This document shows positions 28,061-56,320 of a stretch of 64,000 bases of DNA, in pieces. Numbering within the stretch: position 1 is the first letter of the stretch; each line of letters starts with the position of its first letter. Under the pieces are notes generated by a model that was given only the letters and a program-made list of their open reading frames with translations, was not told the DNA's origin and searched no databases. Source of the stretch: Raja brachyura (lineage: Eukaryota); NCBI GenBank assembly GCA_963514005.1, contig OY740804.1, forward strand, positions 5,270,001-5,334,000, written 5' to 3'. The translations under genes were made by a program, and so were the position numbers.

Positions 28061-28097
28061 ATGTTTTACATTCTGCTGTTTCTCACTGTGACTTCAA
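28061..28097 (+). CDS. Gene 2 exon 1, leader (MFYILLFLTVTS)
   Basis: accacgATG start, hydrophobic peptide, phase-1 donor A/gtaagt. Confidence 0.85.
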
Positions 28098-31000
28098 GTA
28101 AGTTTTTCCACTGAAAGCTAAAATGGACAGATTCTTGATTAGTACGGGTGCCAGGAGTAATGGGGAGAAGGCAGGAGAATGGGGTTAGGAGGGTGAGATA
28201 GATCAGCCATGATTGAATGGCGGAGAAGACATGATAGGCCGAACAGCCTAATTCTGCCCCATTAACTTATGGTCATGGAACCATAGCGCAGTTATATGTT
28301 AACGCGAAGATTAGCTCTTGTTATTTAAATAAGTGATGATACATTGCTGTTCAGCCAAAGGACCAGGAGCCTAGAAAGGAACCAATTAACTTTACATTTC
28401 AGCAAGAGTTAAAATGAACTGTGACAAGAGCATGGGATTTAGCAGAGGATTTAAGAGACTTTCGGACTGGCACATGCATGTAAGAGAAAAAAGACACAAA
28501 GTGCTGGAGTAACTCAGCGGGTCAGGCAGCATCTCTAGAGAACATGGATAGGTGATATTTTGGGCCAGGACCCTTCTTCAGACTGACTGTGGTGGGGGGA
28601 GGGGGGTGGGGAGAATGCCCCACCACCTCAATTAGTTTTTAAGAGTCGTTGGCAGGGGCAGATGGAAATGCAGGGAATGGAAAGATATAGATGATGAACG
28701 AGCAGATAGGGGTTGGTCGTAGCATCATGTTCAGCATGGCGATTATGGGCCAAATGGCCTGTTCCTGTGCTGTACTGTTCTATGCATTTAGTGAAGATGC
28801 AGCACAGAAGATTTTTACGGTAATCTTTCCTCGGATGCTGTCTTTGTGGAGTTTCTCCCCGTCACCGTATGGGTTTCTTCCAGATGCTCGAGTTTTCTCC
28901 CACCTCCCATTTCAAGACGAGGGGGACATTGAATGGGAATAATTTGATGTGATTCTGTAAAATTTCCAGCATTATATTTCACCCAACAGGTTCCTTAGCA
29001 AAGCTTCACTTGATGGTGATAAGAGCTGGTGAGGGAGAAACAGTGACTATAGAATGTCCAAACGCTCAGAAAACAGGACATGTCAGCTGGTGCAAAGCCT
29101 ATTCTCGAGTGGGGTGTCAAGTAATAGTCAACACTGAGAAAGACAAGAACCGTAGTGGAAGGATATCAATGAGAAGACTCAATGGGTCTGTTTTTGTATC
29201 AAGTCAACTTCAGAAGAATGATACAGGAACATACTGGTGTGGAAAAAGTCAGGCAAAGAAAATCGATGTTTCAGATATTGTCATGTTGGATGTTTTCACA
29301 GGTAAGAGATTTTCTGAAGATTTTAAGACCGATAATATGCTTCACTGATAATATACACTTGGACTGCTGTGCCATAATGAGCATACTGATTGTTATGGAG
29401 AGGTGCTGCCCGTCCTGCTGAGTTACTCCAGCACTTTCTACGCAAGATTCCGGTATCTGCAGTTCCTTGTGTCTACCGATTGTTAAGCGAGTTTAACTTA
29501 CAAAGGTGTGCAGGAAGGATGCTGGTTTACACCAAAGATAGACACAAAATGCTGGAGAGGCGGGACAGGCAGCTTCCCGGGAGAAATGGAATACGAGACA
29601 TTTTGGGTCAATAGACAATAGACAATAGGTGCAGGGGTAGGCCATTCGGCCCTTCGAGCCAGCACCGCCATTCAATGTGATCATGACCGATGATCCCCAA
29701 TCAGTACCCCGCTCCAGCCTTCTCCCCCATATCCCCTGATTCCGCTTCCTTCAAGAGCCCTATCTAGCTCTCGCTTGAAAGTATCCAGAGAACCGGCCTC
29801 CTCCACCATCTGAGGCAGAGAATTCCACAGACTCACAACTCTCTGTGTGAAAAAGTGTTTCCTCATCTCCGTTCTAAATGGCTTACCCCATATTCTTAAA
29901 CTGTGGCCCCTGGTTCTGGACTCCCCCAACATTGGAAACATGCTTCCTGCCTCTAGCGTGTCCAAACCCTTAATAAACCTATATGTTTCAATAAGATAGC
30001 CTCTCATCCTTCTAAATTCCAGAGTATACAAGCCCAGTCACTCCGGGTCAGGGCAATTCCTCAGACTGAAAGTAGGGAGATGGGGAAGAGCTGGTGGAAC
30101 TAGGTTGGAAGGGGGCAAGGGGGGAGGGGAGTGGAGTGTTAGGAGAAGTTACTTAAAATGAGAGAATTCAACATTCATACCGCTGGGTTGTAAGCGAACC
30201 AAGCAAAATATGAAGTGCTGTTCCTCCAATTTGCCCAGGGCCTTTCTCTGATAATGAAGGAGGCCCAGGACAGAAAGATCAATGTGGGAATGGGAAGGGG
30301 ATTTGAAATGGTTGACAAGTGGGAGATCCTGTAGGCCTTGGCGGACCGAGCGCAAGTGTTCGGCAAAACGGTCGATGAGTCTACGTTTGGTCTCGCCTCG
30401 TTATCTCTCCATCTTCAGCATCCCATTAATGAGGGTGCCACCCCGTGGCACAGCGGAAGAGTTGCCGCCTTACAGCCCCAGAGACCCGGGTTCGATCCTG
30501 ACCACGGGTGCTGTCTGTACGGAGTTTGTACGTTCTCGCCGTGACCTTCGTGGGTTTTCCCCGGGTGCTCCGGTTTCCTCCCACACTCCAAGGTTTGTAG
30601 GTTAATTGGCTTCAGTAAAATTATAACTCATCCCTAGTGTGTGTAGGAAAGTGTTAATGTGCGGGGATCGCTGGTCGGTGCAGACTCGGTGGGCTGTATC
30701 TCTAAACTAAGGTTTGTGCATCCTTGGCTCTTCCCCACTAAAGTCAACAGTCAGCATCTCTGATCTCTCATACCCTAATTTTGTTTCCATTACAGCAGAT
30801 TCACGGATACTAAACCGTACCACAGTCAAGGGCATAATGGGCAATGCCACCACTATACATTGCCGGTACAAGGAGCAATTTGAAGCATTTGTGAAATTCT
30901 TGTGTAAAGTCGTCTCTGTGAATAGTTGCAGCATCATAGCGATGCCTCAACACTACAACAGCAGCAAATTATCAATCAGTGGAAACAAATTCAACAACTT

Positions 31001-34000
31001 TGCTGTCACGATCAGGCACACTGATGAAGGAGATGTGGGTGAATATTGGTGTGGGGCCAGGACACCGGTCGACTTTGAGATCTCACAGGTTAAAACCGTG
31101 ATGTTTAAAGGTATAAATCAACATAAAATTTTTGTGACTCAACATTTATGCATAAATTCAGCATGCAAACTGTCTTTACTGATATTATATTCCATGTATC
31201 TCTCTCCATTCTCGTAAGTTATTGGAGTAGAATTAGGCCATTCGGCCCATCAAGTCTACTCCGCCATTCAATCATGGCCGATCTATCTTTCCCTCTCAAC
31301 CCCATTCTCCTGCCTTCTCCCCATAACCCCTTACACACGTACTAATGAAGAATCTATCAATCTCTGCCTTAAACATATCCATTGACTTGGCCTCCACAGC
31401 CTTCTAATTCTTCTCATCTCCCCCAGCCTCGTATCTTCAAAGCTTTCCCTAAACCGTGTCCTGATATTCACCTGAGTTTTACCTTCTTAGTAATCTCTGA
31501 TTGTGGAATTTATTACTAAATACTTCACTTATGTTTATTACTCTTAGACGGACATTCTGAACCTCTTGTTAATATACATATTAATTGAATTGAAAGATGC
31601 AACATGGAAACAGGCTCTTCGGCCCATCTAGTCCATGCCAACCATCCATCATCCATTCACACTAGATTTATGTTATCCCATTTTTGCATCTACTCCTTAC
31701 AGACTAAGGGGCAATTTGCAGCATCTGCAGTTCCTTGAGTTTAAGTTATGTTATGTTGTTATTGATATGAATTGGTATAATATGTTTATTTTAACAACCC
31801 ACCTCAGGAACGCTAACAAAACCAGAGGTACCAAGCAACAAAGCAAGGTAAGATTTCTGCAGTCATCCTCAATCTAATAATTATTTACGGATTGTTATTG
31901 ATATTGGTTCAATACGTCATGTTTAGTTTAGTTTAGTTTAGAGATAGAGCACAGAAACAGGCCCTTCGGCCACCGAGTCCACACTGACCACCGATCCCCA
32001 CACACTTATAGTATCCTACACCTACCAGGGACAATTTACATTTATACCAAGCCAAGACATTTATGCACGTCTTTGGAGTGTGGGAGGAAACCGAAGATCT
32101 CGGAGAACACCCACCGGGTCACGGGGAGAACGTACAAACTCCGTACAGACAGCACCCGAGGTCAGGATCGAACCCGGGTCTCTGGCGCTGCTCCATTGTG
32201 CCACACCGTCTCTTAATCTGAACCAGCATCTGCAGTTCCTCGCATCTTGCTTCCAGTTTCATCCACATTCTAGTTTGTCAACACAAAGAACTGCAGAGGT
32301 TGGTTGATACAGAAAGGGATACAAAGTGCTGGAGTAACTCAACGGGTCAGGCAACATCGCTGGAGAACATGGATAGGTGGCGTTCCAGGTCAAAACACTT
32401 CTTCAGATTCACGTTTCCGGTTGACACCCTTCTTTGATCCGAAGAAAGGTCTCGATCCGAAACATCACCTGTCCCCGTTCTCCAGGGATGCTGCCCTGAC
32501 CTGCTGAGCTACTCCAGCACTTTGTGTCCTTCCTCATTCTAGTTCAATTTAGTGTTAGAGATATTGTTCCTTGTCTCATTGAATGTTTCTCCATCATGTT
32601 TTAAAAGCGGCACCCCACAGATATGGCACATTATACTTCCACTCGTGTTGGGACTATTGATTGTAATACTGATAGTTCTACTTGTAAAGAAGAGGAAACA
32701 GTCAGAAACTATCCCTCAAAAATGTAAGTAGCCAACAAAATATTTCTTCTGCAGTTAAAATAATAATAGAACAGTAACTGTGTATGGATTTATTATTGTC
32801 GTACAGTGAAAACACGTTGTTTTGCATGCCACCCAGTCAAATCACACTGGGCACGAGTATGTGTAGGAAGGAACTGCAGATGCTGGTTTAAATCGAAGAT
32901 AGACTCAAAAAGCTGGAGTAACTCAACGGGACAGTCAGCATCTCTGGAGAGAAGGATGGCTGTTGTTTCAACCCATCTGAAAAGGTCTCGATCCAAAACA
33001 TCATCCATTCCTTCTCTCCAGAGATGCTGCTTGTCCCACTGAGTTACTCCAGCTGTTTGTGTCTATTTTCTGTACACGAGTACATCAGGTTGTGCATGAA
33101 AGAATATGGTGTTACAGCGTCAGGGAAAATGCCAATAAAAATGTTGAGGGACTGCAAAGAGGCATAAATTGCAATAAATGTCCGTAAATTATCCCCATTG
33201 TGAGGTTTAGTTTAGATTATGGATACTGCGTGGAAACAGGGGCTTCGGCCCACTGGGTCTGCACCAACAATTGGTCCACTTACACTGGCACTACCGTACA
33301 CACAATAGACAATAGACTATAGGTGCAGGAGTAGGCCATTTGGCCCTTCGAGCCAGCACCGCCATTCAATGTGATCATGGCTGCTCATCCCCAATCAGTA
33401 CCCCGTTCCTGCCTTCTCCCCATATCCCCTGACTGCTATTTTTAGGAGTCCTATCTAGCTCTCTCTTGAAAGCATCCAGAGAACCTGCCTCCACCGCCCT
33501 CGGAGGCAGAGAATTTCACAGACTCACCACTCTCTGTGATAAAAAGTGTTTCCTCGCCTTCGTTCTAAATGGCTTACTCATTCTTAAACTGTGGCCCCTG
33601 GTTCTGGACTCCTCCAACATCGGGAACATGTTTCCTGCCTCTAGCGTGTCCAAGCCCTTAACAATCTTATATGTTTCAATGAGATATCCTCTCATCATTT
33701 CTAAACTCCAGAGTGTACAAGCCCAGCTGTTCCATTCTCTCAGCATATGACAGTCGCGCCATCCCGGGAATTAACCTTGTAAACCTGCGCTGCACTCCCT
33801 CAATAGCAAGAATGTCCTTCCTCAAATTTGGGGACCAAAACTGCACACAATACTCCAAGTGTGGTCTCACTAGGGCTCTGTACAATTGCTGAAGGACCTC
33901 TTTTGCTCCTATATTCGATTCATCATGTTATAAAGGCCAACATGCCATGCGCTTTCTTCACTGCTGCTGTACCTGCATGGTTACTTTCATAGACTGATGT

Positions 34001-37000
34001 GCAAGGACCCCCTGATCCCATTGTACTTCTCCTTTTCCCAACTTGATGCAATTTAGATAGTAATCTGCCTTCCCGTTTTTGCTACCAAAGTGGATAACCT
34101 CACATTTATCAGCATTAAACTTAATCTGCCATGCATCTTCCCAATCCCCCAACCTGTCCAAGTCACCCTGCATTCTCATAGCATCCTCCTCACAGTTCAC
34201 ACTGCCACCCAGCTTTGTGTCATCTGCAAATTTGTTAATGTTACTTTGAATACTTCATCCAAATCATTGATGTATATTGTAAATAGCTGCGGTCCCAGCA
34301 CCGAGCCTTATGGTACCCCACTAGTCAAAGGGACCTGTTAATCCCTACTCTTTGTTTCCTGTCTACCAACCACTTCTCTATCCATGTCAGCACTCTACCT
34401 CCATATACCATGTGCCCTAATTTTGCCCACTAATCTCCTATGTGGGACCTTATCAAATGCTTTCTGAAAGTCCAGGTACACTACATCCATTGGCTCTCCC
34501 TTGTCTATTTTCCGAGTTACATCTTCAAAAAATTCCAGAAGATTAGTCAAGCATTTCTCCCCGTATTGTCTTTTTGGTTATCTTCTGTTGTTCTTTAAAC
34601 ATTACTCAATCCTCTTGCTTTCCGCTCATCTTTGCTACGTTGTACTTCTTCGCTTTAATTTTTATACTGTCCCTGACGTCCCTTGTCAGCCATGGTCGTC
34701 CCTTTCTCCCCTTGGAATCTTTCTTCCTCCTTGGAATGAACTGATCCTGCACCTTCTGTATTATTATTCCTAGAAACACCTGCCATTTTTGTTCCACTGT
34801 CATCCCTGCTAGTGTATCTTTCCAGTCAACTTTGGCCAGCTCCTCCCTCATGGCCCCATGATCCCCTTTATTCAACTGCAGCACTGACACCTCCGATCTA
34901 CTCTTCTCCTTCTCCAAGTCCACACACTAGGGACAATTTGCTATTTTACCAAGCCTATTAACCTACACACCTGAAGGTGTTTGGAGTGTGGGAGGAAACC
35001 GGAGTTCCCAGCGGAAACCCACACAGGCCAAGGGGAGAATGTATAAACTCCGTACAGACAGCACCCATAGTCAGGATTGCGCCACCATCCAGGACAAGTG
35101 TACGGGTGATCGAGGGCCGAAGGGCTTGTTTCTGCTCTGTATCGCCAAACTAAACATGTCCCGTGCCAGTGATGGAAGGCCGGGACACCAGAGGTCACCG
35201 ACACTTATTCCAACTAGTGTCACTGGATGTTGTACGCCCATCTGCAAGATATCGGCGAGACCAAGCACAGACTGGGAGATCGTTCCGCTGAACACCTTCG
35301 CTCAGTCTGCCTTGACCTATGCAATCTTCCAGTGCCATTAGTTAACTCCCCTTACCATTCCCAAACTGACCTTTCTGTCCCGGGCCTCCTCCACTGTCAG
35401 TGTGAGGCCAAATGCAAATTGGAGGAACAGCACCTCATATTTCGCTTGGGCAGCTTACAACCCAGCGGTATGCATATTGATTTCTCTAACTTCAAGTAAC
35501 TTTTGTATTCCTTCTCTCTCCGTCTCTCTCCCAATCTGGTCGTCGCACTAGTTTCACTGTTGTCCTGCTGAGTTTCAGTGTTTGTATCAATAGACAATAG
35601 ACAATAGGTGCAGGAGTAGGCCATTCGGCCCTTCGAGCCAGCACCGCCATTTAATGTGATCATGGCCAATCATCCGGCCCTTGGTTCTGGACTCCCCAAA
35701 CATCGGGAACATGTTTCCTGCCCTTGCGTGTCTAAACCCTTAATAATCTTATATGTTTCAATAAGATCCCCTCTCATTATCACTTTCCCCACAGCCAACA
35801 ATGGACCATTGTGGGCTCCACATTTCCTTGATCATCGGTGCTGGCTTTGATCCTTCTATTTACTTGGCTTTCTATCATTTATTCTATGTACCTTTTCATA
35901 TCTCTCGTTTCCATCTCCCCTGACTCTCAGTCTGAAGAGTCAGGTTTCAGTGGTGGGTCTTGAACCCACAACCACGAGCGTCTCCTCAGTGTTTGACAGT
36001 GAAAAGGAAGTGGTTCTCGGTTGCTAAGACCGGAAAGTAACATGTGGTTGCAGCTTCTGGTAAGGTTGTCGGTTGGTTAGTGGGAGGGGGGAGGGGGGAG
36101 GGGGGAGCATGAGTGCGGAAGAAAGTGGGGAACTGCGATGTGTGCTGCGGTTGACACCTCATCACAAGCGGAACAAACCTGCTTCCAACCACCTCCATCA
36201 AGACCTCTACCATCTCCTTGTTCCCCAGAGCTACAGTATTTATTTTTAAGAGAAACAGTGTGCAAACAGGGCCCTTGGCCCACCGAGTCCACACCGACCA
36301 ACACTCACCCATACACTAGTTCTATCCTACACATTAGGGACAATTTACAGAAGGCAATTCACCGACAAACCTGCACGACTTTGTAACGTGGGAGGAATAG
36401 ATACAGCATGGAAACAGGCCCTTGGGCCCATTGAATCCGCGCCAACCGGCGATCACCCCGGTACACGAGCACCTCTTAAATCCATCCAGTGATTTGGCCT
36501 CCACTGCCCTCTGTGGCAGGGAATTCCATAAATTCACAACTCTGAGGTGAGAAAAAACTTTTTTACCCAAAGTCTTAAATGACCTCCCCTTTATTCTAAG
36601 GCTGTGGCCCCAGGTTCTGGACTCACCCAACATTGGGAACATTTTTCCTGCATCTAGCTTGTCCAGTCCTTTTATAATTTTATATGTTTCTATAAGATCC
36701 AGGAGGCAGATACGATAGCGGCATTTACGAGGCTTTTAGATAGGCACATGGATATGCATGGAATGAAGGGATGTGGATCACTTGAAGGCAGAGGGGATTA
36801 GTTTAACCTGGCACCATGTCGGGTATAGACAATGTGGGCCGAAGGGCCCGTTTCCTGTACTGTACTGTTCAATGTTTTCTGCTGCTCGGGGAAATATGAG
36901 AACTATTGTTATTCTAAATTACATGCTGTTACCTGTTTTTGCAGATTATTCCAAAAACTCAGAAACTCCCACCACAGCCAAGGTAAGAATGTAAACTGTA

Positions 37001-37896
37001 TGAAACCATTCTGTATTATTTCTCTTTTCAAATTCTGAACAGGATACATCTCTTCCTTACATGTGTTGAACTGTAGAGTCTGATTTACAGAACCAGACAG
37101 AGTGCTGGAGTAGCTCAGCCGGTCAGGCAGCATTTCTGGAGAACATGGATCGGTGACATTTTAGGTCGGGACCTGTGAGTCTGAAGCAGGGTCCTGACCG
37201 ATTCATATTCTCCAGAGATGCTGCCTGACCCGCTGAGTTAATCCAGCACTTTGTGTCCTTTTCTTTAACAAATTACAACGCAACACTGCCCTTTGATTCG
37301 GTTTCCCTCTCTACGTTTGCTGCCCGACCTGTTGAGCATTTCCTCCAGTTAGTTTATTTAGAGATACACCGCGGAAACAGGCCCTTTGGCCCACCGAGCC
37401 CATGCTGACCAGCGATTCCTGCACATTAACACGGCCCTACACACAATGGGGACAATTTTACATTTATACCAAACCAATTAACATACAAACCTGTACGTCT
37501 TTGGAGTGTGGGAGGAAACCGAAGATCTCGGAGAAAATCCACGCGGCTCACCGGGAGAACGTACAAACTCCATACAGACAGCGCCCGTAGTCGGGATTGA
37601 ACCTGGGTCTCTGGCGCTGTGAGGCAGCAACTCTACCGCTGCGCCACCCTTATTCTCAGATTTCCACAGTATTTTGCTTTTGTCCTTAAACATCTAACGG
37701 ACTTTTTTTGTTTCAGTCTGAAGGTGAAACTGAAGATACGGTTGCATATTCCACCGTGACCATTCAGTCGTCAGAACAGACCGTAGCAAGCCCTGCAATT
37801 TATTCCAATCTTAAGGATCTAAAGGAGCAAAATGAAGACGTCAAGATCCATTCGTCAGAATCGGTGGAATATTCTGCTCTGGTGTTCCGATCTTAG
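28061..37896 (+). CDS. Gene 2: two-IgV CD300/pIgR-like (MDIR-type) inhibitory receptor, about 345 aa; join(28061..28097,28990..29301,30796..31110,31808..31847,32608..32723,36945..36982,37717..37896)
   Basis: Seven GT-AG exons with intron phases 1,1,1,2,1,0 total 1038 nt open. They encode leader MFYILLFLTVTS, two IgV domains with the family C-C' cysteine pair, a short stalk, an uncharged TM and a tail with VAYSTV, AIYSNL and VEYSAL. Confidence 0.88.
28990..29301 (+). CDS. Gene 2 exon 2, IgV domain 1
   Basis: caacag acceptor; GETVTIEC...SWCKAYSRVGC...LQKNDTGTYWCG; donor CAG/gtaaga. Confidence 0.92.
29610..30045 (-). mobile_element. CR1 3' fragment
   Basis: ORF 29681..30031 (YTLEFRRMRGYLIE...SLWNSLPQ) plus tail. 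Confidence 0.8.
30045..30405 (-). mobile_element. Penelope-like element 3' fragment (GIY-YIG C-terminus)
   Basis: NHFKSPSHSHIDLSVLGLLH...KLEEQHFIF...QPSGMNVEFSHFK. Confidence 0.85.
30796..31110 (+). CDS. Gene 2 exon 3, IgV domain 2 (NAGNAG acceptor; start 30796 or 30799)
   Basis: tacagcag acceptor; TTIHCRY...KFLCKVVSVNSC...DVGEYWCG; donor AAG/gtataa. Confidence 0.92.
31808..31847 (+). CDS. Gene 2 exon 4, short stalk (TLTKPEVPSNKA)
   Basis: ctcag acceptor and AG/gtaaga donor; phase 1 to 2, as in the gene 1 stalk exon. Confidence 0.8.
32608..32723 (+). CDS. Gene 2 exon 5, transmembrane (GTPQIWHIILPLVLGLLIVILIVLLVKKRKQSETIPQK)
   Basis: aag acceptor at 32607 (phase 2), hydrophobic helix plus KKRK, donor T/gtaagt; 116 nt, the same length as the gene 1 TM exon. 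Confidence 0.88.
33304..34915 (-). mobile_element. CR1/HER1-type LINE fragment with internal deletions
   Basis: Minus-strand ORF fragments 33516-34923 and a (CTATTGT)n tail. Confidence 0.88.
35235..35945 (+). mobile_element. Penelope-like element 3' fragment (GIY-YIG endonuclease C-terminus and 3' region), interrupted by a CR1 piece
   Basis: IGETKHRLGDRSAEHLRSV...KLEEQHLIFRLGSLQPSGMHIDFSNFK*. Confidence 0.85.
36945..36982 (+). CDS. Gene 2 exon 6, short cytoplasmic exon (YSKNSETPTTAK)
   Basis: tttttgcag acceptor, AAG/gtaaga donor, phase 1 to 0. Confidence 0.82.
37717..37896 (+). CDS. Gene 2 exon 7, ITIM-bearing tail
   Basis: tttttttgtttcag acceptor, phase 0; SEGETEDTVAYSTV...AIYSNL...VEYSALVFRS*. 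Confidence 0.9.
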   Translation, partial: SEGETEDTVAYSTVTIQSSEQTVASPAIYSNLKDLKEQNEDVKIHSSESVEYSALVFRS

Positions 37897-41093: not shown

Positions 41094-41565
41094 TTTAATG
41101 TTTTAGCTAAAGAACAGGCGCCTCTGTCAGTGCAATCCTTGCTCAGCCTAAATGTTATTGTTGGGTCTCTACACATGAAATGCCACATCTTACACTCTGT
41201 TGTAGCAGACAATCAGCTATAACGGACACCATTCTCCCCATTGCAACAAAGGTTTACAGTATTATATTTAGACACTTAAATATGCAAAGCACTGACGGAA
41301 ATGGGCCTACTGCAGGCAAACTAGATCAGTGTACAAGGTTTAGCATGGAGGTGACAGGTTGAAGGGCCTCATTTCAGAGTTGTGCAAGTTGTTTCATGTG
41401 TGGCGTCTAGCAGAGATGGGGAAACATTATCCATGCAGTTGGCACATTGACTGGCATAAACCAGTTAATCCCGCGCCAAGATAAATCAGAGAGAAAGCAA
41501 AGGTAACAAATCTGAACTTGTTATTGTTATTTGAGACAGGGCTCTTAAATATAATTGAGGATTTT

Positions 41566-42367
41566 CTTTAAGGATGGCAGGATTGGGATATGACCACGTA
41601 AGTGTGGATACCCTCACTGGAAACCTGCTTCAGTTCAGCTTGTCTTCTGCCCAAACCTCTGCCAGCCACAGTTAATCCCCCAAAGTGGAACCGTTGACAA
41701 TGTGCACGCAACAGGTTGCAAAACAGGATATGGGTCAATGTTCTTTACTCTATGTCACAGTGCTAAGCATTTGTTCATTCGCGAGGAAGTGTGCACACGG
41801 AACAAGTGGTTAAATCAAACAAGAGTAAGTCGTGAACAGGGCAAATTGGCAACCACTTCGTCGGAAAACAAGGACCTCTCTCTCTCTGGAACCACGATAT
41901 TTTACATTCTGCTGTTTCTGACTGTGACTTCAAGTAAGTTTTTCCACTTAAAGCTAAGATGGACAGATTCTTGATTAGTACAGGTGCCAGGGGTTATGGG
42001 GAGAAGGCAGGAGAATGGGGTTAGGAGGGAGAGATAGATCAGCCATGATTGAATGGCGGAGAAGACATGATGGGCCGAACAACCTAATTCTGCCCCATTA
42101 ACATGGTCATGGAACCATAGCACAGTTATATGTTAACACGAAGATCAGCTCTTGTTATTTAAATAAGTGATGATACACTGCTGTTCAGCCAAAGGACCAG
42201 GAGCCTAGAAAGGAACCAATTAACTTTACATTTTAGCAAGAGTTAAAATGAACTGTGAGAAGAGCATGGGATTTAGCAGAGGATTTAAGAGATTTTCGGA
42301 CTGGCACATGCATGTAAGAGAAAAAAGACACAAAATGCTGGAGTTACTCAGCGGGTCAGGCAGCATC
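41566..42367 (+). pseudogene. Duplicate of the gene 2 promoter, leader exon and start of intron 1, with the start codon mutated (ATG>ATA at 41897-41899)
   Basis: Near-identical to 27730..28533; the leader copy 41897..41933 keeps the gtaagt donor; no Ig exon found after it. Confidence 0.85.
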
Positions 42368-43000
42368 CTGTTGTCGGTAAAATCAGTCCCAGTACTTTGA
42401 GAAAGTGTGGCTGATCACATTCCAGTCCATTGATAAATACTCCTTGGCCCTGACTAAAGTCCCTCTGTCCTTAGTACACCCAGTGGCCCTACCATTGTGA
42501 ATGTCTACCCTAATTTGTTGCCAAAAACAAATAACTTCACACTTATCACAGTTCAATACCTGTCGGCATTGCTCTGCCCAACATACCAGTTGCTTCTTAT
42601 CCCTCTGTGGTCTATGATTATCGTACTATCCAAAATGATACAATTTTGGTGTAATCTGTAAACTCGTTAATCATACTTCCAACATTAACATCTAAGGCCG
42701 GCAGATGGGACTAGTGTAGATAAGGGCATCTTGGTCATCGTGGGGAAATTGGGTCAAAGGACATGTTTTCGTGCTCTATGTCTGACCACCAACATGAACA
42801 TCTAAGTTTGTTAATGTATGTGGTCATGGAACACCTCCAAGGAATGGGTGCATGTTGCGATATAAACATCTCACCAATGTCTACGCCACAACCTTGGATC
42901 ACACTGAATTAGTCCGTGTGCAATATGATGAAAATAAATTGTCCAGCGTTGATCTTTGATAATTCTGTGTGGAAGTAATAATATTTCCTTGGATTTCCAG

Positions 43001-43112
43001 GGACATCGTGCTGAATGTTCGCCGTGTTTGGGGTGTGTTACGCTGGGTACTCTTTGGAGTTCTGCTTCTCTTCCCGCTTTCCATCAGCTGTGTGACAACT
43101 TTTAAAAGGTAA
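43001..43112 (+). CDS. Orphan transmembrane exon with intramembrane Arg, activating-receptor type (DIVLNVRRVWGVLRWVLFGVLLLFPLSISCVTTFKR*)
   Basis: ttccttggatttccag acceptor; open phase-2 frame with a hydrophobic helix containing Arg; ends at donor AG/gtaaaa (43108) or TAA at 43110-43112. Functional status unknown. Confidence 0.65.
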
Positions 43113-43196: not shown

Positions 43197-45560
43197 CAGT
43201 GCCCTCCATAATGTTTGGGACAAAGACCCTTCATTTATTTATTTGCCTCTGTATTCCACAATTTGAGATTTGCAATAGAAAAAAATCACACTTTATTAAA
43301 GGCCATTTTTATACATTTTGGTTACACCATGTAGACATTACAGCTGTGTTTTTACGTAGCCCCCCCCTCCCCCCCATTTCAGAGCACCATAATGTTTGGG
43401 ACACATGGCTTCACAGGTGTTTGGAATTGCTCAGGTGTGTTTATTTGCCTCCTTAATGCAGGTATAAGAACGCTCTCAGCACCTAGTCTTTCCTCCGGTC
43501 TTTCCATCACCTTTGGAAACTTTTATTGCTGTTTATCAACATGAGGACCAAAGTTGTGCCGATGAAAGTCAAAGAAGCCATTGTGAGACCGAGAAACAAG
43601 AATAAAACTGCCAAACCTTAAGCTTGCCAAAATCAACTGTTTGGAATATCATTAAGAAGAACGAGAGCACTGGTGAGCAGGCACGGAAATAGCTATCAAA
43701 ATATGGAGGGGACAGGGGGGACACAATTTCTTGGCAGCCTCGCGCGTTTGCGCACACTCACACACAGGCGCGAGGCTTCAGAGGCTCAATCCAGCGCTAA
43801 ATGCAGCTCAACTCAGCCTGTCTCGCCGGGTTAACCTGCAGCCCTGCCTGGACTGACGGGACATATTTCCAATAAACCTGGGGCAGATTTCCCGCAAGTC
43901 CGGGCAGGGCTGTAGGTTAACCTGGCGGGACAGGCAATGTTGAGCTGGGTTTAGCGCTGCTTCTCTGCGCTGGCTGTGGGCCTGGGAGTACAGCTCCTGT
44001 CTGACTACCGGTGATCTCAGGCCACCCGTGGGGGGGGGGCACTCGGGTGCGGACTGGACAGAGGCGGAGAGCCGGGATCGATCCTGGCTGTGGACGGGGC
44101 GCAGAACTGTGCCGAGAGTGTTTTGGCACGTCTCACTCCTCCAATCACCGAGCTCAGTCCCACCCCCCCCCCCCCCACTCCCTCTTCCAATTATCGCGCT
44201 GAATGATCATGTCCCATCCCCATCGCTTACTGACCGACGTCTCGCTCATCCAATCAGCACCCTCAATCAGCAGTCCCACCCCCAGTCTAGCGGAAATCGG
44301 AGATTTCACCGAGTTTCAAAATCCAGATTACAAAAACGGGGGGGAGGGGTGAGAATCGTCCCCCACCTCTCAAAACGAGTCCCCCCCTGCCCCCCCCCCC
44401 CCACCCCCCTGGGATTTCCGCCCCTGCTCGTGAGCTTACCAATCGCAAAGGGACTGGCAAGTCAACGAAGACCTCCACAGCTGATAACAGAAGAATTCTC
44501 TCTATAATAGAGAAAAATCCCCAAACACGTATCCGTCAGATCAGAAACACTCTTCAGGTGTGGATTTGTCAATGACCACTGTCCGCAAAAGACTTCATTA
44601 ACAGAACTACAGAGGCTACGCTGCAAGATGCAAACCACTGTTTAGCCACAAAAATTGGATGGCTGGGTTACAGTTTGCCAATAAGTACTTAAAAGAGCAA
44701 CCACAGTTCTGGAAAAAGATCTTGTGATCAGATGAGACGAAGATTAACTTATATCAGAGTAATGGCAAGAGCAAGGTATGGAGAAGGGAAGGAACTACCC
44801 AAGATCCAAAGCATAACACCTCATCTGTGAAACACGATGGTGGGGGTGTTTTGGCCTGGGCATGTATGGCTGCTGAAGGTACTGACTCACTTATCTTCAT
44901 TGATGATACAACTGCTGATGGTGGTGGCATGATGAATTCTGAAGTGTATAGACACATCCTATCTGCTCAAATTCAAATAAATGCCTCAAAACCCTTAGGC
45001 CGACAGTTCATTCTACAGCAAGACAATGATTCCAAACATATTGCAAAGGAATTTTGCAAAGCTAAAAAATGGTCAATTCTTGAGTGGCCAAGTCAATCAC
45101 CCGATCTGAACCCAATTGAACATGCCTTTTATATGCTGAAGAGAAAACTGAAGGGGACTAGCCCTCAAAACAAGCATGAGCTAAAGATGGCTGCAATACA
45201 GGCCTGGCAGAGCATCACCAGAGAAGACACCCAGCAACTGGTGATGTCCATGAATCGCAGACTTCAAGCAGTCATTGCATGTAAAGGATATGCAAGAAAA
45301 TATAAACATGACTACTTTCATTTACATGACTTTGCTGTGTCCCAAACATTATGGTGCCCTAAAATGGGGGGACTATGTATAAACACTGCCGTAATTTCTA
45401 CATGGTGAAACAAAAATGTGTAAAAATGGCCTTTATTAAAATCTAACAATGTGCACTTTAACCACATGTGTTTTCTTTCTATTGCAATTCTCAAATTGTG
45501 GAGTACAGAGGCAAATAAATAAATGATGGTTCTTTGTCCCAAACATTATGGAGGGCGCTG
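43197..45560 (+). mobile_element. Tc1/mariner DNA transposon (IR/DR type), inactive
   Basis: TA TSD (43195-96, 45561-62); ~210-bp TIRs starting CAGTGCCCTCCATAATGTTTGGGAC with internal direct repeats; transposase QQDND...WPSQSPDLNPIE; in-frame TGA at 44725. Confidence 0.95.
43678..44426. mobile_element. hAT-type non-autonomous element inserted in the Tc1 transposase
   Basis: 8-bp TSD CTGGTGAG/CTCGTGAG; TIRs CAGGCACGGAAAT / CAGGGGCGGAAAT. Confidence 0.82.
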
Positions 45561-47397
45561 TAGGCCCTACAGCCGACCAAGTCCGTGCCGACCAATGATC
45601 ACCCCGTACACTCGCACTATGCTACAAATGAGGAACAATTTACAATTATCCAGAGGCCAATTAACCTACAAAACTACACATCTTTGGATTGTGGGAGGAA
45701 ACCGGAGCACCCGGAGAAAACCCACACTGTCACAGGCAGAACATACAAACTCCGTACAGACAGCACCTGTACCCATGATCAAACCCGGGTCTCTGGCGCT
45801 GTAAGGTAGCAACTCTACCGCTGCGCCACTGTGCCGCCCTGGGTCATTTCCTCGGGTAAAATTTGATGGTAGAGATTATAAACTGAGTTTTAATTTTTAT
45901 TCAAGGAAAAAAACAGCCGAGACCTTGGAGATGGGGTCGGCAGTGGTGGAGGAAGGAGAGGAACAGCGCCGGTGAGCTGGCTGGGTGGGGCCTCACCTCG
46001 CATGGAGACGGCCGTGGGAGGCGAGGGGAAAAGGGTGTGTTGGTGGGTCGAGGTGTGGGCGGAGTGCGAGTGGGCTGCTGGAGGCCCTGCAGCAGCCGGT
46101 GGATCGGGTGCCGCTGGAGGCCCCACAGAGGTCGGGGACGAGCGCGCGGACCGGACATGGCCTGCAGCGGCACGGAGGGGCAGTGGTGGAGGCACCGACA
46201 ACATCGCCAGGCCAGGCCGAACCCTGCAACTCCCACCCAGTGCCATCTCCACGACAATAAGCCTTTAAGCATATGATGAATTTCATTGGCCAGTTCATTC
46301 ATACCAATAAAAAGCAACAGATCACTGAAAAACACATTCTAACACGTGATTCGATGCCAAATGGTGATGTGACGAACCTCGAGACGTTTCCATCACCTTT
46401 AAGGCACTGTTGAAATGCAAGTTGTTGCATTTTTGCAAATAATTGCTCAATAAACCTTTAGTCAGAGGGTGATGAATCTGTGGAATTCTTTGCCACAGAG
46501 GCTGTCAGTGGATATTTTTAAGTCAGAGATGGATTGATTCTTAATTAGTACAGGTGTCAGAGGTTATGGGGAGAAGGCAGGAGAATGGGGTTAGTAGATG
46601 AGATGGATCAGCCGTGATTGAATGGCGGAGTAGACTTGATGGGCTGAATGGCCTAATTCTACTCCTATAATGTCAAAATTCAGCCATCTTTTATTACATT
46701 GGATTACATTAATAATTATTCAATTTACACGGCAATTCTATTGGTATTAAAGTTAAACGTTTACATTCTGGAGAGCCAGCTTTGAGTTCTAGTCTACGTA
46801 CTGCTGTCTTTTGGGTAAATGTCAGGATGTACAGAAGTGTCTGCAATCATTGGTGCCTTTTTGAGGCAGCGTCTCCGATAAATAAAAAGTTTGGAGCTGA
46901 GTTCCAGAGGTCACCCCTCACCCTGCCACTATGTCCTACAGTGGTACAGGACAGGCAGCACACCCTCCCCACTGACGATCAAGGAGCCTCTGTGTGGAGA
47001 TAGATGATCAGATCAATCCAGGTCATGTTCATAAGTTATAAGAGCTGAATTGGGACATTCGGCCCATCAGGTCCACTCCGCCATTCAATCAATCATGGCT
47101 GAGCTATCTTTCCCTCTCGACACCATTCTCCTGCCTTCTCCCCATAACCCCTGACACCCATACTAATCAAGAATCTATCAATCTACGCCTTAAAAATATC
47201 CATTGACTTGGCCTCCACATCCTTCAGTCGTAATGATTCACCACCCTCTGACTAAATAAATTCCTTCTCATCTCCTTTCTAAAACACTATTGAATGTATG
47301 TTTCACCTCCGAGAATGTTGGATGGAGTTTTGTAAGGATCATGTATTATATATATTTATTTTTTGAATAAAGTATATTTTAAATTTTTTTTTAAAAA

Positions 47398-50380: not shown

Positions 50381-51090
50381 TATGGCAATTCTTTTGGAAA
50401 ATAACTTCATGAAAGGATTTGAAGGCATTTCCTCTGTTAAACCAAGGTAATGGGTCTGTGTCTGAGGTTGAATCGAGAAGTTAACCCTCATACTGGTTTA
50501 GTGCAGAGTTACCCCTTCTACTCAAGTAGTGTCACAGTACACTAATGTGAGGCATTTATATTTGTTTACAACACTGATATTAGGGTGGCATAGTAGCTCA
50601 GTGGTAGAGTTGCTGCCTCACAACACCAGAGCCTACGGTTGCCGTCTGTATGAAGTTTGTACGATCTTTCTGCGACCACATAGGTTTTCTCCAGGTGCTC
50701 CGGCTTCCTCCCACATTCCAAAGATGTGCAGGAAGGAACTGCAGATGCTGGTTTACCCCGAATATAGACGCAAAATGATAGAGTAACTCAGCGGGACAGG
50801 CGGCTTGTTTGTAGGTTGATTGGCCTCTGTAAATTGTCCCTAGTCTGTAGGGTAGAACCACTGTACAGGTGATCGTTGGTCAGTGCGGACCCGGTGGACT
50901 GAAGGGCCTGTTTCCGCTCTGTATCACTCATTTAGAAGTAAAATGAATTAACATATGGACTCTGATTCAATGCCAGGCTGTAGAATTGAAGCTATTAGCT
51001 GAGTTGGAAAGGACCCATTAAAGTTAACGTACAAGTTTGAAGTGTTGAAAGCAGATGCACTATAATTATAATCCAATTGTTGAGAACGGA

Positions 51091-51228
51091 TCAATTCTGG
51101 CACGAGAAATTCCCCTTCTCTTCGTGGTCTGGTGTCTGATCAATATCGCGGAAGGTTTCTTCTGTCTGAGTGCTGGATTTATCCGTGGTCACGTCACTTA
51201 ATTTATCTTCTTCGTCATCTCTGGAAAA
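51091..51228 (-). CDS. Probable terminal exon of the minus-strand gene (FSRDDEEDKLSDVTTDKSSTQTEETFRDIDQTPDHEEKGNFSCQN*)
   Basis: Minus-strand ccttcttttcaaag acceptor gives a phase-0 acidic frame ending in TGA; a second cag acceptor lies 8 nt downstream. Confidence 0.5.
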   Translation of the reverse strand, partial: FSRDDEEDKLSDVTTDKSSTQTEETFRDIDQTPDHEEKGNFSCQN

Positions 51229-51258
51229 CTTTGAAAAGAAGGTCAATATTTTATTGTT

Positions 51259-51791
51259 TTTTTTTGTTTTTTTTAATTTTATTTTTTAGAGGTAAATACA
51301 TCAATGTACACATATATACTGTTCCAATCATTGTACCCCATAATTTTATGGCTTTTAAAGAAAAAGAATAGAGAGAAAGAGAGTGAAATGTGAAAAGAGT
51401 TGTGACAGTGAAAGAGCGTGCCAGAGGGGAGAAGAAACCCTTGGTCAAAGAATTAGAAAAGGGGGTTCAAAGATAGACCTAAAAAAAGAAAAGGAAAAAG
51501 TAAACAAAAAGGAAAAAAGCCAGTTATTATGTTATATATATCACGCAAAAGGAATCCACCAACTCGATAGTTTTTCATCCCCCCCTACCAAGGCCCGAGG
51601 TACTCCTGCACCCTATCTTTGTAGTAATTCTATAAATGCAGACCACGTCTGATAGAAGCGTTCTGATTTTCCTTCCAGGCGGAGTCTCATATCTTCCAGA
51701 TGTGGTGTTTCAAACATAGTTGAAATCCACATATTTAACGTCGGTATAGGAGCATTTTTCCAAAATTTTAAGATTAGTTTTTTTCCTATTA
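51259..51791 (-). mobile_element. 5'-truncated L1-clade LINE
   Basis: Minus-strand IGKKLILKFWKNAPIPTLNMW...FYQTWSAF, A-rich tail, 17-bp TSD GTCAATATTTTATTGTT (51242-51258, 51792-51808). Confidence 0.85.
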
Positions 51792-51922
51792 GTCAATATT
51801 TTATTGTTAAGCAGTATGTCAGCAGTCGATCTTTAAGCCAAAGCAAATTTAAATCTTTTATTGATTATAGATTCCACCACAGAATGCTGAATATGGCTCT
51901 CTTTTAATTCTTGTCATGATCA

Positions 51923-52345
51923 TGGGCTTGTACACTCTGGAGTTTAGAAGGATGAGAGGGAATCTCATTGAAACACAGAAGATTGTTAACGGCTTGGACA
52001 CGCTAGAGGCAGGAAACATGTTCCCGATATTGGGGGAGTCCAGCACCAGGGGCCACAGTTTAAGAATAAGGAGTAAGCCATTTGGAACGGAGACGAGGAA
52101 ACACTTTTTCTCACAGAGAGTGGTGAGTCTGTGAAATTCTCTGCCTCGGAGGGCGGTGGAGGCAGGTTCGCTGGATGCTTTCAAGAGAGAGCTAGATAGG
52201 GCTCTTAAAAATAGCGGAGTCAGGGGATATGGGGAGAAAGCAGGAACGGGGTACTGATTGGGGATGATCAGCCATGATCACATTGAATGGCGGTGCTGGC
52301 TCGAAGGGCCGAATGTCCTACTCCTGTACCTAATGTCTATTGATT
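51923..52345 (+). mobile_element. CR1 3' fragment
   Basis: GLYTLEFRRMRGNLIE and 3' UTR. Confidence 0.8.
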
Positions 52346-52798
52346 TAATTGGAACAATAAATGAAACGGGTTTGCTGTACATTTTGCACAAAGAACTATA
52401 TTGTACTTTATGTTATTTTTTATGATTAGCATGGTTCACTTAGAATTTCCCATTGAGCCGTCTTTATATAGAATCATAGAGTGATAGTGTGGAAACAGGC
52501 CCTTTGGCCCAATTTGTCCACACCAGCCGACATGTCCTAGGTACACTAGTCCCACCCACCTGCGCTTGGTCCATATCCCTCCAAATTTGTCTAACTGTTT
52601 TTTAAACGTTGGGATAGTCCCAGCCTCAATTACTTCCTCTGGCAGCTTGTTCCATACACTCACCGCCCTTTGTGTGAAAAAGTTCAAGAGGCAAGAGTGT
52701 TTTATTGTCATATGTCCCAGATAGGACAATGAAATTCTTACTTGCTGCAGCACACAGAATATACAAACATAGTACATAATGGGGGAAAAAAAAGTTCA

Positions 52799-52799
<1 letters not shown>

Positions 52800-52847
<48 letters not shown>
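52800..52847. repeat. (TA)n(CA)n microsatellite
   Basis: About 20 TA units followed by CA units. Confidence 0.95.
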
Positions 52848-53627
52848 TACCCACATACTCAATAAATAAACAAATATAGTGCAATATTAATAATAGTCTA
52901 CCTCGATAGTTACCCCTCAGATTCCCATCACCTCAAACCTATGTCCTCTGGGCCACAAATTCACTTACTCTGGGCAAGAGACACTGTGCATATATTTAGA
53001 TTAAAACAGGACTATAATGTACTTCTGTTTTAATGTAAATATATGAAGAGGTCCCAGTGACACGTTCTAACTGAACCATGCTCATCATAAAATAACCTAA
53101 CAAGTAGAAGCAAAGCAGATGATCTGCCATGTGTTCTCTGGAATGCCGAAGGTTGAGGGGAGACCTATATAAGATTATGAGTGGCATTGAGAGAGGAGAC
53201 AGTCAGAAACATTTTTCCCAGACTGGAGAGCATAGCTTTAAGATGTTTGGGGCAACGTTTAAAGGACATGTAAGGCCCAAGTTCACTTTTGTTTTACACA
53301 GAGGGTGGTGGGTGCCTGGTACGCACAGCTGTGTGTGATGGTGGTGGAGGCAGATTATGAAAGTGGCATTTAAGAGGCACTTGGACAAGAACATGGATCT
53401 GCAGGGATACTGATAATGTGCAGGCAGATAAGGGTTAGTCTCGCTATCATGGTCAGTACATTTAAAAGTAAAGTGGATAGGTATATGGACGGGGAGGGAA
53501 TTGAGGGGTATGGTCTGAGTGCAGGTAGATGGGACTAGGGGAAAATAAATGGTCGGCACGGCCTGGAAGGGCCGAGAAGGCCTGTTTCCGTGCTGTAATT
53601 GTTATATGGTTATATGGTTATAGTACA

Positions 53628-53941
53628 GGGGCGGCACGGTGGCGCACAGTAGATTTGCTGCCTCGCACAGCGCCTGTGACCCGGGTTCGATCCTGACTAC
53701 GGGTGCTGTCTGTATGGAGTTTGTATATTCTCCCCGTGACCTGCGCAGGTTATCTCTGGGAGCTACGGTTTCCTCCCACACCCCACAGACGTACAGGTTT
53801 GTACGCTAATTGGCTTCGTAAAATTGTAAATTGTCCCTGGTGTGTGTAGGATAGTGTAAGTGTGTGGGGATCACTGGTCGGCGCGAACTCGGTGGGCCGA
53901 AGGGCCTGTTTCTACACTGTATCTTTGAAATAAACTAAACT
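53628..53941 (+). mobile_element. V-SINE (HE1-like)
   Basis: Same head, core and tail. Confidence 0.85.
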
Positions 53942-54189
53942 ACAGACATTGTGGGCCGAAGGGCCTGCTCCTGTGCCGTACTGTTCTGTGATGTGTATTT
54001 TTAATCTTACACGCCAACTCCATCTAATCCCCATAACCCTTGGGCACTCACATGCGCCCAGATGGTACTTGGTGTTTAGTGGATTATATGGAGGGATATT
54101 ATATAGAACACACCGCATAAATAAATATCCAAGAGATAGCATAGAGACAAATTCTATTGATGATTAGACATCAGATGTGAATTCCTTAC

Positions 54190-54245
54190 CACAGAATTGC
54201 AGACTGCATTATATTCTTCCTCTTTGTAACTGATTCCTTCCTCCG
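54190..54245 (-). CDS. Probable cytoplasmic exon of the minus-strand gene (EEGISYKEEEYNAVCNSV)
   Basis: Minus-strand ttctttatcatccttag acceptor and GTG/gtaagg donor; phase 1 to 0; non-repeat sequence. Confidence 0.5.
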
Positions 54246-55661
54246 CTAAGGATGATAAAGAAATAGATTGCAAAAATATGACTAAAAATTAATACTGTAA
54301 ATCCGTTGCAATACATATTTTAAGGAATAGTTGTCTGCAGTGTGTTTTGACATTTGCAATAGAAAAATCGACTGAAAGGTAATCCCTTTAGCCACAAGGG
54401 CCACATCTAACTCCCTCTTAAATATAGCCAATGAACTGGCCTCAACTACCTTCTGTGGCAGAAAATTCCACAGATTCACCACTCCATGTGTGAAAAATGT
54501 TTTTCTCATCTCGGTCCTAAAAGACTTCCCCCTTATCCTTAAACTGTGACCCCTTGTTCTGAACTTCCCCAACATCGGGAACAATCTTCCTGCATCTAGC
54601 CTGTCCAACCCCTTAAGAATTTTGTACGTTTCTATGAGATCTATCTGTTTCCATGCTGTATCTCTAAACTAAACTAAATTAAACTAAACTAAACTCCAAA
54701 CATGTGCAGGTTTGTAGCGTAATTGACTTCTGTCAATTGTCCCTTGTGTGTAGGGTGGAACTAGTATACGCTGGTTGGACTCAGTGGGCTAAAGGGCCTG
54801 TGTCTACACTGTATCTGTAAACTAAACTGCAGCAAACTATTATATCTCAGAAGATGCCCTTTTAAAACACTTCCAAGCACACAGAATAATGTGTCACTGT
54901 AGGATTGCTATTTTTTAAATGTCAGCCTGACTTTAATTCACCTGAAAACACCAAAATGGCACCTCCTGCTCTTGGTACTGATTTAATAATTTAGTAAATA
55001 AATAATTGAACCACACTGTGGTGATGGAGGATGGACGAATGAATGTCATGCACACAGGACCTCTTTTATCACTCCTATGATTGGAACGTTATGTTACTGT
55101 CCTTGTGCATACTTGTGTCTTGTATGTACAGCATTGTATATTGTTCTCTGTCTCTTGTCTGTAGTGTCAGGGCATATTCTTATTCATTGTTCATCTCGAG
55201 TGCAGCCTCTCCATAGATTCCTGCAGGTGTCAGCTGGCATTCAGCTGGTGACACTGTGAGCCAGAGGTTGGGGGTTCAAATCCCACTGCCATGTGAGTTG
55301 AGCACAAAGATCGCGTCTAACCATTCAGCGTGGAACTCAAGCAGTGAATTATTGTTGGAGATGCTGTCAGATGAGACAAGTAACTTAGGCTTTCCCTGCT
55401 CTCTCTGAAGGGTCTGTTAAGCTGCTGCAAGTAAGAATTTCATTGTTCTGTTTTCAGTAAATATGATAATTAAATACTCTTAATTCTTGGCTTGAGGATA
55501 TATGAGGTCCTTTGCCAAGGTGAATTGATTATTATTTTCCCCCACATGATCCATGTCCTCATTTTAATGAAAACACAAATAATCTGAGTATTAACACATC
55601 AATTTGCATGTTTTCCCCGTGACCGTGTGGGTTTTCTCTGCGTGCTCCTGTTTCCTCCCTA

Positions 55662-56320
55662 AAGGATGAGAGGGAATCTTATTGAAACATGGAAGATTAT
55701 TAAGGGATTGGACACGCTAGAGGCAGGAAACATGTTCCCAATGTTGGAGGAGTCCAGAACCAGGGGCCACAGTTTAAATATAAGGGGTAGGCCATTTAGA
55801 ACGGAGATGAGGAAAAACGTTTTCACCCAGAGAGTTGTGGATCTGTGGAATTCTCTGCCTCAGAAGGCAGTGGAGGCCAATTCTCTGGAGGCTTTCAAGA
55901 GAGAGTTAAGGGCCTGTCCCACTTGGCGATTTTTTCACCGACTGCCGGCGTCATATCAGGATCGCCAAAAGATTTTGAACATTTCAAAATCCAACGGTGA
56001 CAAAAAAATATGTGGCGACACTTGAAAAAACACCGCGCATCAATGGTGACAATACGTCACGTGACAATACGTGACAAGACGTATTTTTCGGTGACCTGAT
56101 ACGTCAGTCAATGATGCCAGCAGTCGGCGAGAAAATCGCTAAGTGGGGCAGGCCCTTTAGATAAAGCTCTTAAAGATAGCGGAGACAAGAGATATGGGGA
56201 GAAGGCAGGAACGGGGTACTGATTGTGGTTGATCAGCCATGATCACAGTGAATGGTGGTGCTGGTTCAAAGGGCCGAATGGCCTACTCCTGCACCTATTG
56301 TCTATTGTCTATTGTCTATC
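55662..56320 (+). mobile_element. CR1 3' fragment interrupted by a Harbinger-type MITE
   Basis: ORF 55666..56025 motifs; (CTATTGT)n tail. Confidence 0.8.
55909..56156. mobile_element. PIF/Harbinger-type MITE
   Basis: TIR AGGGCCTGTCCCACTT with long inverted arms; TTA TSD. Confidence 0.85.

What the first reader, a model, noticed from the sequence alone, without database searches (positions are those of the whole stretch)
43001..43112. Orphan activating-type TM exon, phase-compatible with the inhibitory genes: broken paired receptor or inhibitory/activating splice switch
Seen: an open exon absent from the ORF track, with a good acceptor, encodes VWGVLRWVLFGVLLLFPLSISCV-TTFKR*. It has an Arg near the N-terminal side of the helix and almost no tail. 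It starts in phase 2 like the TM exons of genes 1 and 2, so the gene 2 stalk exon (ends AG at 31847) would join it in frame. The adjacent duplicated leader is phase 1, lacks its ATG and could not. Known: a charged TM residue with a short tail marks adaptor-coupled (FcR-gamma/DAP12-type) activating members of paired receptor families. Inference: it is either the remnant of an activating sister gene that lost its Ig exons, or an alternative terminal exon giving one ectodomain opposite signalling outputs.
Basis: partly seen in the sequence, partly recalled or inferred. Interest (0 to 1): 0.7.

Follow-up and report, generated by a model that had tools for sequence, protein, structure and literature searches.

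The report
Headless activating immune receptor in skate
In a cluster of CD300/pIgR-like immune receptor genes from what appears to be a skate, a membrane-anchor exon and a tail exon have no front half of their own; they are likely the leftover of a separate activating-type gene, an ordinary fate in such clusters, rather than a splice switch, although no RNA could be tested.

Summary
The exon is real, but it is not terminal. It spans 43001-43108. A second exon at 45906-45975 adds a short tyrosine-free tail.

The TM plus tail match RefSeq skate proteins at 55/58 and 53/58 residues. Those proteins carry gene-1-type ectodomains. None of 7 gene-2-type relatives has this TM, so the proposed 31847>43001 join has no precedent.

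In relatives this WxxxRWxxF TM class sits in separate genes with their own leader and IgV, next to inhibitory paralogues. Here no such leader, IgV or stalk lies between gene 2 and the exon. Instead there is an 805-bp copy of gene 2's promoter and leader that lacks its ATG and breaks off inside a short repeat.

Best reading (0.6): the 3' remnant of an activating paired-receptor gene after a rearrangement. Rivals: assembly loss (0.15), splicing from gene 1 (0.13), splicing from gene 2 (0.07). No read evidence was obtained, and adaptor binding is untested.

The parts
43001..43108 (+). TM exon of the WxxxRWxxF class, 108 nt, phase 2/2, internal (donor AAG|GTAAAA)
   Evidence: homologs (E 4e-14 to 4e-10)
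45906..45975 (+). Cytoplasmic tail exon to the stop codon; no Tyr; 3' UTR follows, AATAAA at 46306
   Evidence: tblastn of P0001/P0002, E 5e-8 and 1e-6
41565..42367 (+). Stub: direct copy of gene 2's promoter, leader exon (41897-41933, ATG>ATA) and start of intron 1; 95% identical to 27729-28533; ends inside a SINE-like repeat
42368..43000 (+). 633 bp of intron-like DNA with a decayed LINE (CR1-like by my reading) fragment and short-repeat remnants; no Ig, leader or stalk remnant
43197..45560 (+). Tc1/mariner-type transposon with TA on both sides, inside the TM-tail intron; terminal inverted repeats 77% alike; DDE_3 domain
460..20549 (+). Gene 1, intact inhibitory-type receptor, 322 aa: leader 460-556, IgV 3515-3835, stalk 5158-5383, TM 5991-6106, tail exons 18693-18745 and 20394-20549 with Tyr motifs
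28061..37896 (+). Gene 2, intact inhibitory-type two-Ig receptor, 344 aa: 28061-28097, 28990-29301, 30799-31110, stalk 31808-31847, TM 32608-32723, 36945-36982, 37717-37896
51090..61623 (-). 3' part of a fourth, convergent family gene: stalk 61623-61557, TM 57937-57843, last exon about 51230-51090; 5' part not found in the window

Best explanation
The exon at 43001-43108 and a tail exon at 45906-45975 are the intact 3' half of a CD300/pIgR-like receptor of the gene-1 subfamily, likely a separate activating-type gene that lost its own leader, IgV and stalk exons in a rearrangement whose scar is likely the junction at 42367/42368. SHOWN: the exon pair, its splice sites, its homology, the absence of a matching 5' half between gene 2 and 43001, and the broken gene-2 leader copy. 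INFERRED: the intact gene, as modelled in Amblyraja and Leucoraja, would make a leader-IgV-stalk-TM-short-tail protein. It would pair through its TM Arg with an ITAM adaptor of the FcR-gamma type and oppose the ITIM-bearing gene-1-type paralogue on a shared ligand. In this sequence a deletion or similar event would have fused a gene-2-type promoter/leader stub to the activating gene's stalk-TM intron. A transcript from the stub would carry no in-frame start for the TM, so the locus would be a null allele or pseudogene, shifting the pair towards inhibition.
For: (1) TM plus tail are 55/58 and 53/58 identical to P0001 and P0002. The 3 hits among 10 candidates all have gene-1-type leader, IgV and stalk: 68-76% to gene 1, 26-30% to gene 2. 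(2) Amblyraja radiata has three consecutive RefSeq models on one chromosome: two with this TM and one with an inhibitory-type TM, each with its own distinct IgV. (3) The motif occurs in 13 of 163 fetched proteins (15 places; 0.055 proteins per shuffled set). Two fused models, P0020 and P0021, hold an RW-type unit with its own IgV followed by a second leader/IgV and an inhibitory-type TM; their ectodomains are 81% and 136/137 identical. These are physically separate copies, not one spliced ectodomain. (4) The membrane-proximal IgVs of the three skate RW proteins are 80-86% identical to each other across two genera, matching the 86% of gene 2 against its orthologues. Gene 1's IgV is only 66-70% identical to them, so the RW gene's own IgV appears to be missing. 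(5) A profile of 35 family Ig domains finds only the three known Ig exons in six frames. (6) The stub stops inside a short repeat that continues in gene 2's copy and in 32 of 37 window copies. (7) Activating paired-receptor members are repeatedly lost in primates (CD300C; PMC12447643, passages), and gene-content haplotypes are described for a fish receptor cluster (10.1101/2022.04.21.489081, passages).
Against: (1) Both exons keep open frames and all three splice sites, and are at least as conserved (95%, 91%) as gene 2's C-terminal half (99/110). This fits continued use, but also a recent break. (2) The IgV tree did not resolve gene 1's position (7 of 11 inner branches open). Gene 1's IgV is also only 71% identical to the Amblyraja inhibitory domain, so fast IgV change weakens point 4. 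(3) The 163 proteins came mostly from a gene-1-type query, which biases their ectodomains, and the motif was chosen after seeing the data. (4) All homologs are gene predictions; their RNA support was not seen. (5) The stub's homology to gene 2 also ends on the 5' side (41565), so one simple deletion does not explain it fully. (6) Five of 37 repeat copies also break at that point. (7) No reads were examined, so a real break cannot be told from an assembly error.
Confidence: 0.6

Rival explanations
1. Assembly artefact: the animal has an intact activating gene, and the contig skips its 5' half (and the rest of a second gene-2-like copy) at 42367.
For: Relatives have intact genes of this type. 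The exons look undamaged. Tandem, repeat-rich clusters are prone to collapse (general knowledge).
Against: The window has no N. The junction lies in a short repeat fragment with dissimilar sequence beyond it, not in a long near-identical repeat. The stub differs from gene 2 at 40 of 805 columns, so it is a distinct copy.
Confidence: 0.15
2. Splice switch from gene 1 (or from a gene-1-type ectodomain upstream of the window): the stalk donor at 5383 is spliced to 43001, skipping gene 1's inhibitory end and all of gene 2, so one IgV gets an ITIM tail or an Arg-TM with a short tail.
For: The join is in frame and gives a 273-aa protein built like P0001, and gene 1's stalk ends on the same Asn/Arg junction as the homologs. 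This TM belongs with gene-1-type ectodomains. The exons are intact. In Pristis, isoform numbers X1-X3 (gene-2 type) and X4-X5 (gene-1 type) fall in one accession series, a weak hint of linked transcripts in this cluster.
Against: It needs a 37.6-kb intron that crosses the last exons and poly(A) signals of two genes. Relatives use separate genes. Gene 1's IgV is not the closest match to RW-linked IgVs. It leaves the broken stub unexplained.
Confidence: 0.13
3. Splice switch from gene 2: 31847>43001 puts gene 2's two-Ig ectodomain on the activating-type TM, possibly as a new chimera made possible by the rearrangement.
For: The join is in frame, and 31847 is the nearest upstream stalk donor (11.2 kb). 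No canonical AATAAA follows gene 2's stop until 39619.
Against: 0 of 7 gene-2-type relatives carry this TM: 6 have the gene-2-type TM and 1 has none. Phase 2 is shared by the stalk-TM junctions of genes 1 and 2, so compatibility says little. It needs skipping of three exons.
Confidence: 0.07

Closest known systems
Skate RefSeq models XP_032898103.1 and XP_032898104.1 (Amblyraja radiata 'CMRF35-like molecule 3') and XP_055510911.1 (Leucoraja erinacea 'pIgR-like')
   Same: Same TM exon in all three; same tail in XP_032898103.1 (55/58) and XP_055510911.1 (53/58).
   Different: They have their own leader, IgV and stalk; the window copy does not. XP_032898104.1 ends early, right after the TM.
[quoted passage not shown]
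   Same: Described as a multigene activating/inhibitory family resembling CD300, TREM and pIgR in skate (PMC3031540, passages). The window's Ig exons are V-set, with best PDB hits pIgR and CD300 proteins.
   Different: MDIR sequences were not compared directly, and the original MDIR paper was not seen, so orthology is untested.
Mammalian CD300A/CD300C paired receptors
   Same: Separate inhibitory and activating genes, ectodomains kept alike by gene conversion, repeated loss of the activating member (PMC12447643, passages); compare the 136/137-identical ectodomains in P0021.
   Different: CD300C uses a TM Glu (PMC12447643) and mouse LMIR8 a TM Lys (PMC5974347, passages). This class has an Arg inside WxxxRWxxF.
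FcR-gamma-associating NxxR transmembrane module (Xenopus XFL; LILRA2, PIR-A, NKp46, GPVI, OSCAR, Fc-alpha-R)
   Same: Arg near the N-terminal side of the TM and a short tail; the exon contains NVRR, an NxxR match, just before the helix (PMC2413239, passages).
   Different: Different Ig family. NxxR is not kept in most RW-type relatives. The Arg shared across the class is the later one, in RW.

Membership tests
CD300/pIgR-like (MDIR-type) receptor family | V-set Ig ectodomain related to CD300/pIgR | tested here: met
   Met for genes 1 and 2 and for the homologs bearing this TM (Pfam V-set; PDB hits). The orphan itself has no Ig exon.
CD300/pIgR-like (MDIR-type) receptor family | TM and tail homologous to family members | tested here: met
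   55/58 and 53/58 identity; motif in 13 of 163 fetched family proteins.
CD300/pIgR-like (MDIR-type) receptor family | Direct orthology to cloned skate MDIR1-4 | not tested
   No MDIR sequence was returned under that name by any search.
Intact activating receptor gene | Own leader, Ig and stalk exons upstream of the TM exon | tested here: not met
   None between gene 2 and 43001 by tblastn with 21 homologs or by Ig profile; the adjacent leader lacks ATG and is out of phase.
Adaptor-coupled activating receptor | Charged residue in the TM | tested here: met
   Arg at residue 14 of the exon peptide, within WGVLRWVLF; two more Arg just before the helix.
Adaptor-coupled activating receptor | Short tail without ITIM or ITAM | tested here: met
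   About 24 residues, no Tyr.
Adaptor-coupled activating receptor | Binds FcR-gamma or DAP12 and signals | not testable with these tools
   No adaptor sequence was held. In catfish, the TM charge was not needed for adaptor binding (PMC4810170, passage), so the motif is only a hint.
Paired receptors | Inhibitory and activating genes with similar ectodomains in one cluster | tested here: met
   Met in relatives. In the window only the inhibitory partner is whole.
Alternative-terminal-exon signalling switch | The exon is terminal | tested here: not met
   Donor at 43108 and a downstream tail exon.
Alternative-terminal-exon signalling switch | Transcripts join one ectodomain to both TM exons | not tested
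   No reads were laid; frame compatibility only.

The most novel reading that the evidence does not exclude
The two-exon cassette is still used: one ectodomain (gene 1's across 37.6 kb with gene 2 nested in the intron, or gene 2's as a new chimera) is spliced either to its ITIM tail or to this Arg-TM with a short tail. A cartilaginous fish would then have turned a two-gene receptor pair into a one-gene inhibitory/activating splice switch after losing the activating gene's front half.
Probability: 0.2. Interest if true: 0.7.

Novelty: new member of a known kind. Interest (0 to 1): 0.3.

Why it matters
On the best reading it is one more case of birth and death in a paired-receptor cluster: loss of the activating member, as seen for primate CD300C, now in a likely skate. 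That is of modest interest. Two things are useful beyond that. First, gene predictors can stop this exon at the intronic TAA or fuse neighbouring genes (P0020 and P0021 are fused models), so the corrected two-exon structure helps annotation. Second, a WxxxRWxxF transmembrane class recurs in 13 of 163 related proteins. None of the paper listings from my nine searches or the passages I read described its adaptor; the library lacks most subscription journals and I did not search for the motif text itself. If RNA showed the splice switch, it would show a route from a two-gene pair to a single gene with opposite outputs.

Tried and rejected
No whole genome is held, so paralogues outside the window and synteny could not be checked.

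Sequencing-run search with the tail exon and UTR: no RNA holder listed. 20 of 24 rows hold some words (best share 0.58); one row guessed as RNA holds 0.27. None was laid, so none is used as evidence. The one read-laying run (32) laid nothing, so there is no read evidence on splicing or on the 42367 junction.

Protein atlas on the TM plus tail: top score 0.80, chance level, not used. Earlier-findings look-ups: nothing. Tandem repeats and Rfam over 38000-48000: none.

Rejected readings: a stalk or Ig remnant in 42368-43000 (six-frame reading, tblastn and profile negative; the first 330 bp align to LINE copies above all 100 shuffles, and not to the stalk-TM introns of genes 1 or 2). Also rejected: the stub leader as this TM's leader (out of frame, no ATG), and chance hydrophobic ORF (homologs).

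The IgV tree did not resolve orthology. No structure or complex prediction was run; no adaptor sequence was held. No supplements were read, and the original MDIR paper was not seen.

Full report
Setting. The window is animal DNA rich in short repeats and LINE fragments, has no N, and no whole genome is held. Its receptor genes are closest to skate proteins, so I call it a likely skate. Gene 1 (460-20549) encodes a 322-aa leader-IgV-stalk-TM receptor with Tyr motifs. Gene 2 (28061-37896) encodes a 344-aa two-Ig receptor with Tyr motifs. Their Ig exons are V-set, and gene 1's best solved relatives are pIgR and CD300 proteins. A fourth family gene points the other way, with exons at 61623-61557, 57937-57843 and about 51230-51090.

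The observation. A blind filter for open hydrophobic exons found 3 acceptor sites in the window, all TM exons of this cluster; it missed gene 2's. The exon closes at 43108 with AAG|GTAAAA, and the TAA is intronic. tblastn with skate homologs found the missing tail exon at 45906-45975, beyond a Tc1-type element at 43197-45560. The spliced tail is about 24 residues, has no Tyr, and is followed by AATAAA at 46306.

Whose TM is it? A search with the TM-containing frame alone, among longer proteins, gave 3 hits among 10 candidates: two Amblyraja models and one Leucoraja model. All have gene-1-type ectodomains (68-76% to gene 1, 26-30% to gene 2). TM plus tail match two of them at 55/58 and 53/58. 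Of 7 gene-2-type proteins, 6 have gene 2's own TM type, 1 has none, and 0 have this TM. Gene 1's stalk donor at 5383 is equally in frame.

How relatives arrange it. Amblyraja has three consecutive models on one chromosome: two with this TM and one with an inhibitory-type TM. A search of 1.84 billion representatives with P0001 listed 150 proteins. Across all 163 proteins held, 13 carry WxxxRWxxF at 15 places, against 0.055 proteins per shuffled set (my notebook entry 3 says 11, which was a miscount). The motif was picked after looking at the hits. At all 15 places the preceding 200 residues score higher against gene 1's IgV than against either Ig of gene 2, but the query was gene-1-type, so this is biased. 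Two unnamed fused models, P0020 and P0021, contain an RW unit followed by a second leader, IgV and inhibitory-type TM, with ectodomains 81% and 136/137 identical. P0019 (RW) and P0006 (inhibitory) share 145/148. This is the pattern of separate paired genes homogenised by conversion, as reported for CD300A/C (PMC12447643, passages).

What is missing here. tblastn with 21 homologs and a profile of 35 Ig domains found no leader, IgV or stalk between gene 2 and 43001 other than the leader copy. RW-linked skate IgVs are 80-86% alike across two genera, as gene 2 is to its orthologues (86%), while gene 1's IgV is 66-70% alike to them. The tree left this unresolved, and gene 1 is only 71% alike to the Amblyraja inhibitory domain too. 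The leader copy (41565-42367) differs from gene 2 at 40 of 805 columns. It stops inside a short repeat that runs on in gene 2's copy and in 32 of 37 copies in the window. Old LINE-derived DNA follows. I read 42367/42368 as a rearrangement scar joining a gene-2-type 5' stub to the activating gene's stalk-TM intron. The stub's homology also ends on its 5' side, so more than one event is likely.

Mechanism. Intact members would be activating by inference: TM Arg, short motif-free tail, inhibitory partner with a similar ectodomain. This is the general rule as stated in PMC3031540 (passages). An N-terminal TM Arg points to FcR-gamma, and the exon has an NxxR match like the module in PMC2413239 (passages), but NxxR is not kept in most relatives. 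In catfish the TM charge was dispensable for adaptor binding (PMC4810170, passages). In this sequence, the stub keeps a GAGGAAG site like both intact promoters (that this is an Ets/PU.1-type site is recalled). A stub-driven transcript would have no in-frame start for the TM; its first ATG opens a 26-codon frame off-phase. The locus would be null. I give this 0.6.

Against it. The exons and splice sites are intact and as conserved as gene 2's working C-terminal half (99/110). All homologs are predictions. No reads were examined: the run search listed no RNA holder and the laying call returned nothing. An assembly loss (0.15), a long-range splice from gene 1 (0.13) or from gene 2 (0.07) remain open.

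Comparison and verdict. It works like the activating half of a CD300/MDIR-type pair. It belongs to the CD300/pIgR-like family by homology, but fails the test for an intact gene. Direct MDIR orthology and adaptor binding are untested. Papers seen as passages only: PMC3031540, PMC2413239, PMC12447643, PMC5974347, PMC4810170 and bioRxiv 10.1101/2022.04.21.489081; the others only as search listings. Novelty: new member of a known kind. Interest 0.3. The splice-switch reading has probability about 0.2 and would rate 0.7.

Noticed in passing
window 5276-5360: Gene 1's stalk exon carries a 69-nt in-frame insert of a short-repeat fragment flanked by a 16-bp direct repeat (5276 and 5345). It adds 23 residues; the four skate homologs compared lack it. 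A transposon fragment turned into coding sequence, and a marker for gene 1 transcripts.
   Followed up: partly
window 51090-61623, minus strand: 3' part of a fourth family gene facing the cluster. In shark-like model P0025 the homologous gene lies on the same strand as a gene-1-type gene, which hints at an inversion or a further copy.
   Followed up: partly
P0007, P0009, P0013, P0015, P0016 (Pristis pectinata): Isoform labels X1-X3 (gene-2 type) and X4-X5 (gene-1 type) fall in one accession series (XP_051890302-309), which may mean one annotated locus with shared exons; X4 and X5 differ in the leader.
   Followed up: no
P0002 (Leucoraja erinacea): Its first Ig groups with the first Ig of the Amblyraja inhibitory gene (97/96 support), while the third is closest to an RW-linked Ig; it may be a fused model or a true domain shuffle.
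   Followed up: no
P0003 (Amblyraja radiata): A second RW-type model ends right after the TM, as a small frameshift would cause; activating copies may decay in that species too.
   Followed up: no
window about 28034 and 41870: Amblyraja and Leucoraja gene-2 models start nine codons earlier; both window copies have a Lys codon there, so the stub has no spare start codon at that site.
   Followed up: partly
window 9002-14496: An LTR-type retroelement (182-bp direct repeats at 9002-9183 and 14316-14496, 96% alike) with reverse-transcriptase-like frames, and a LINE-like frame nested inside it, in gene 1's TM-tail intron.
   Followed up: no
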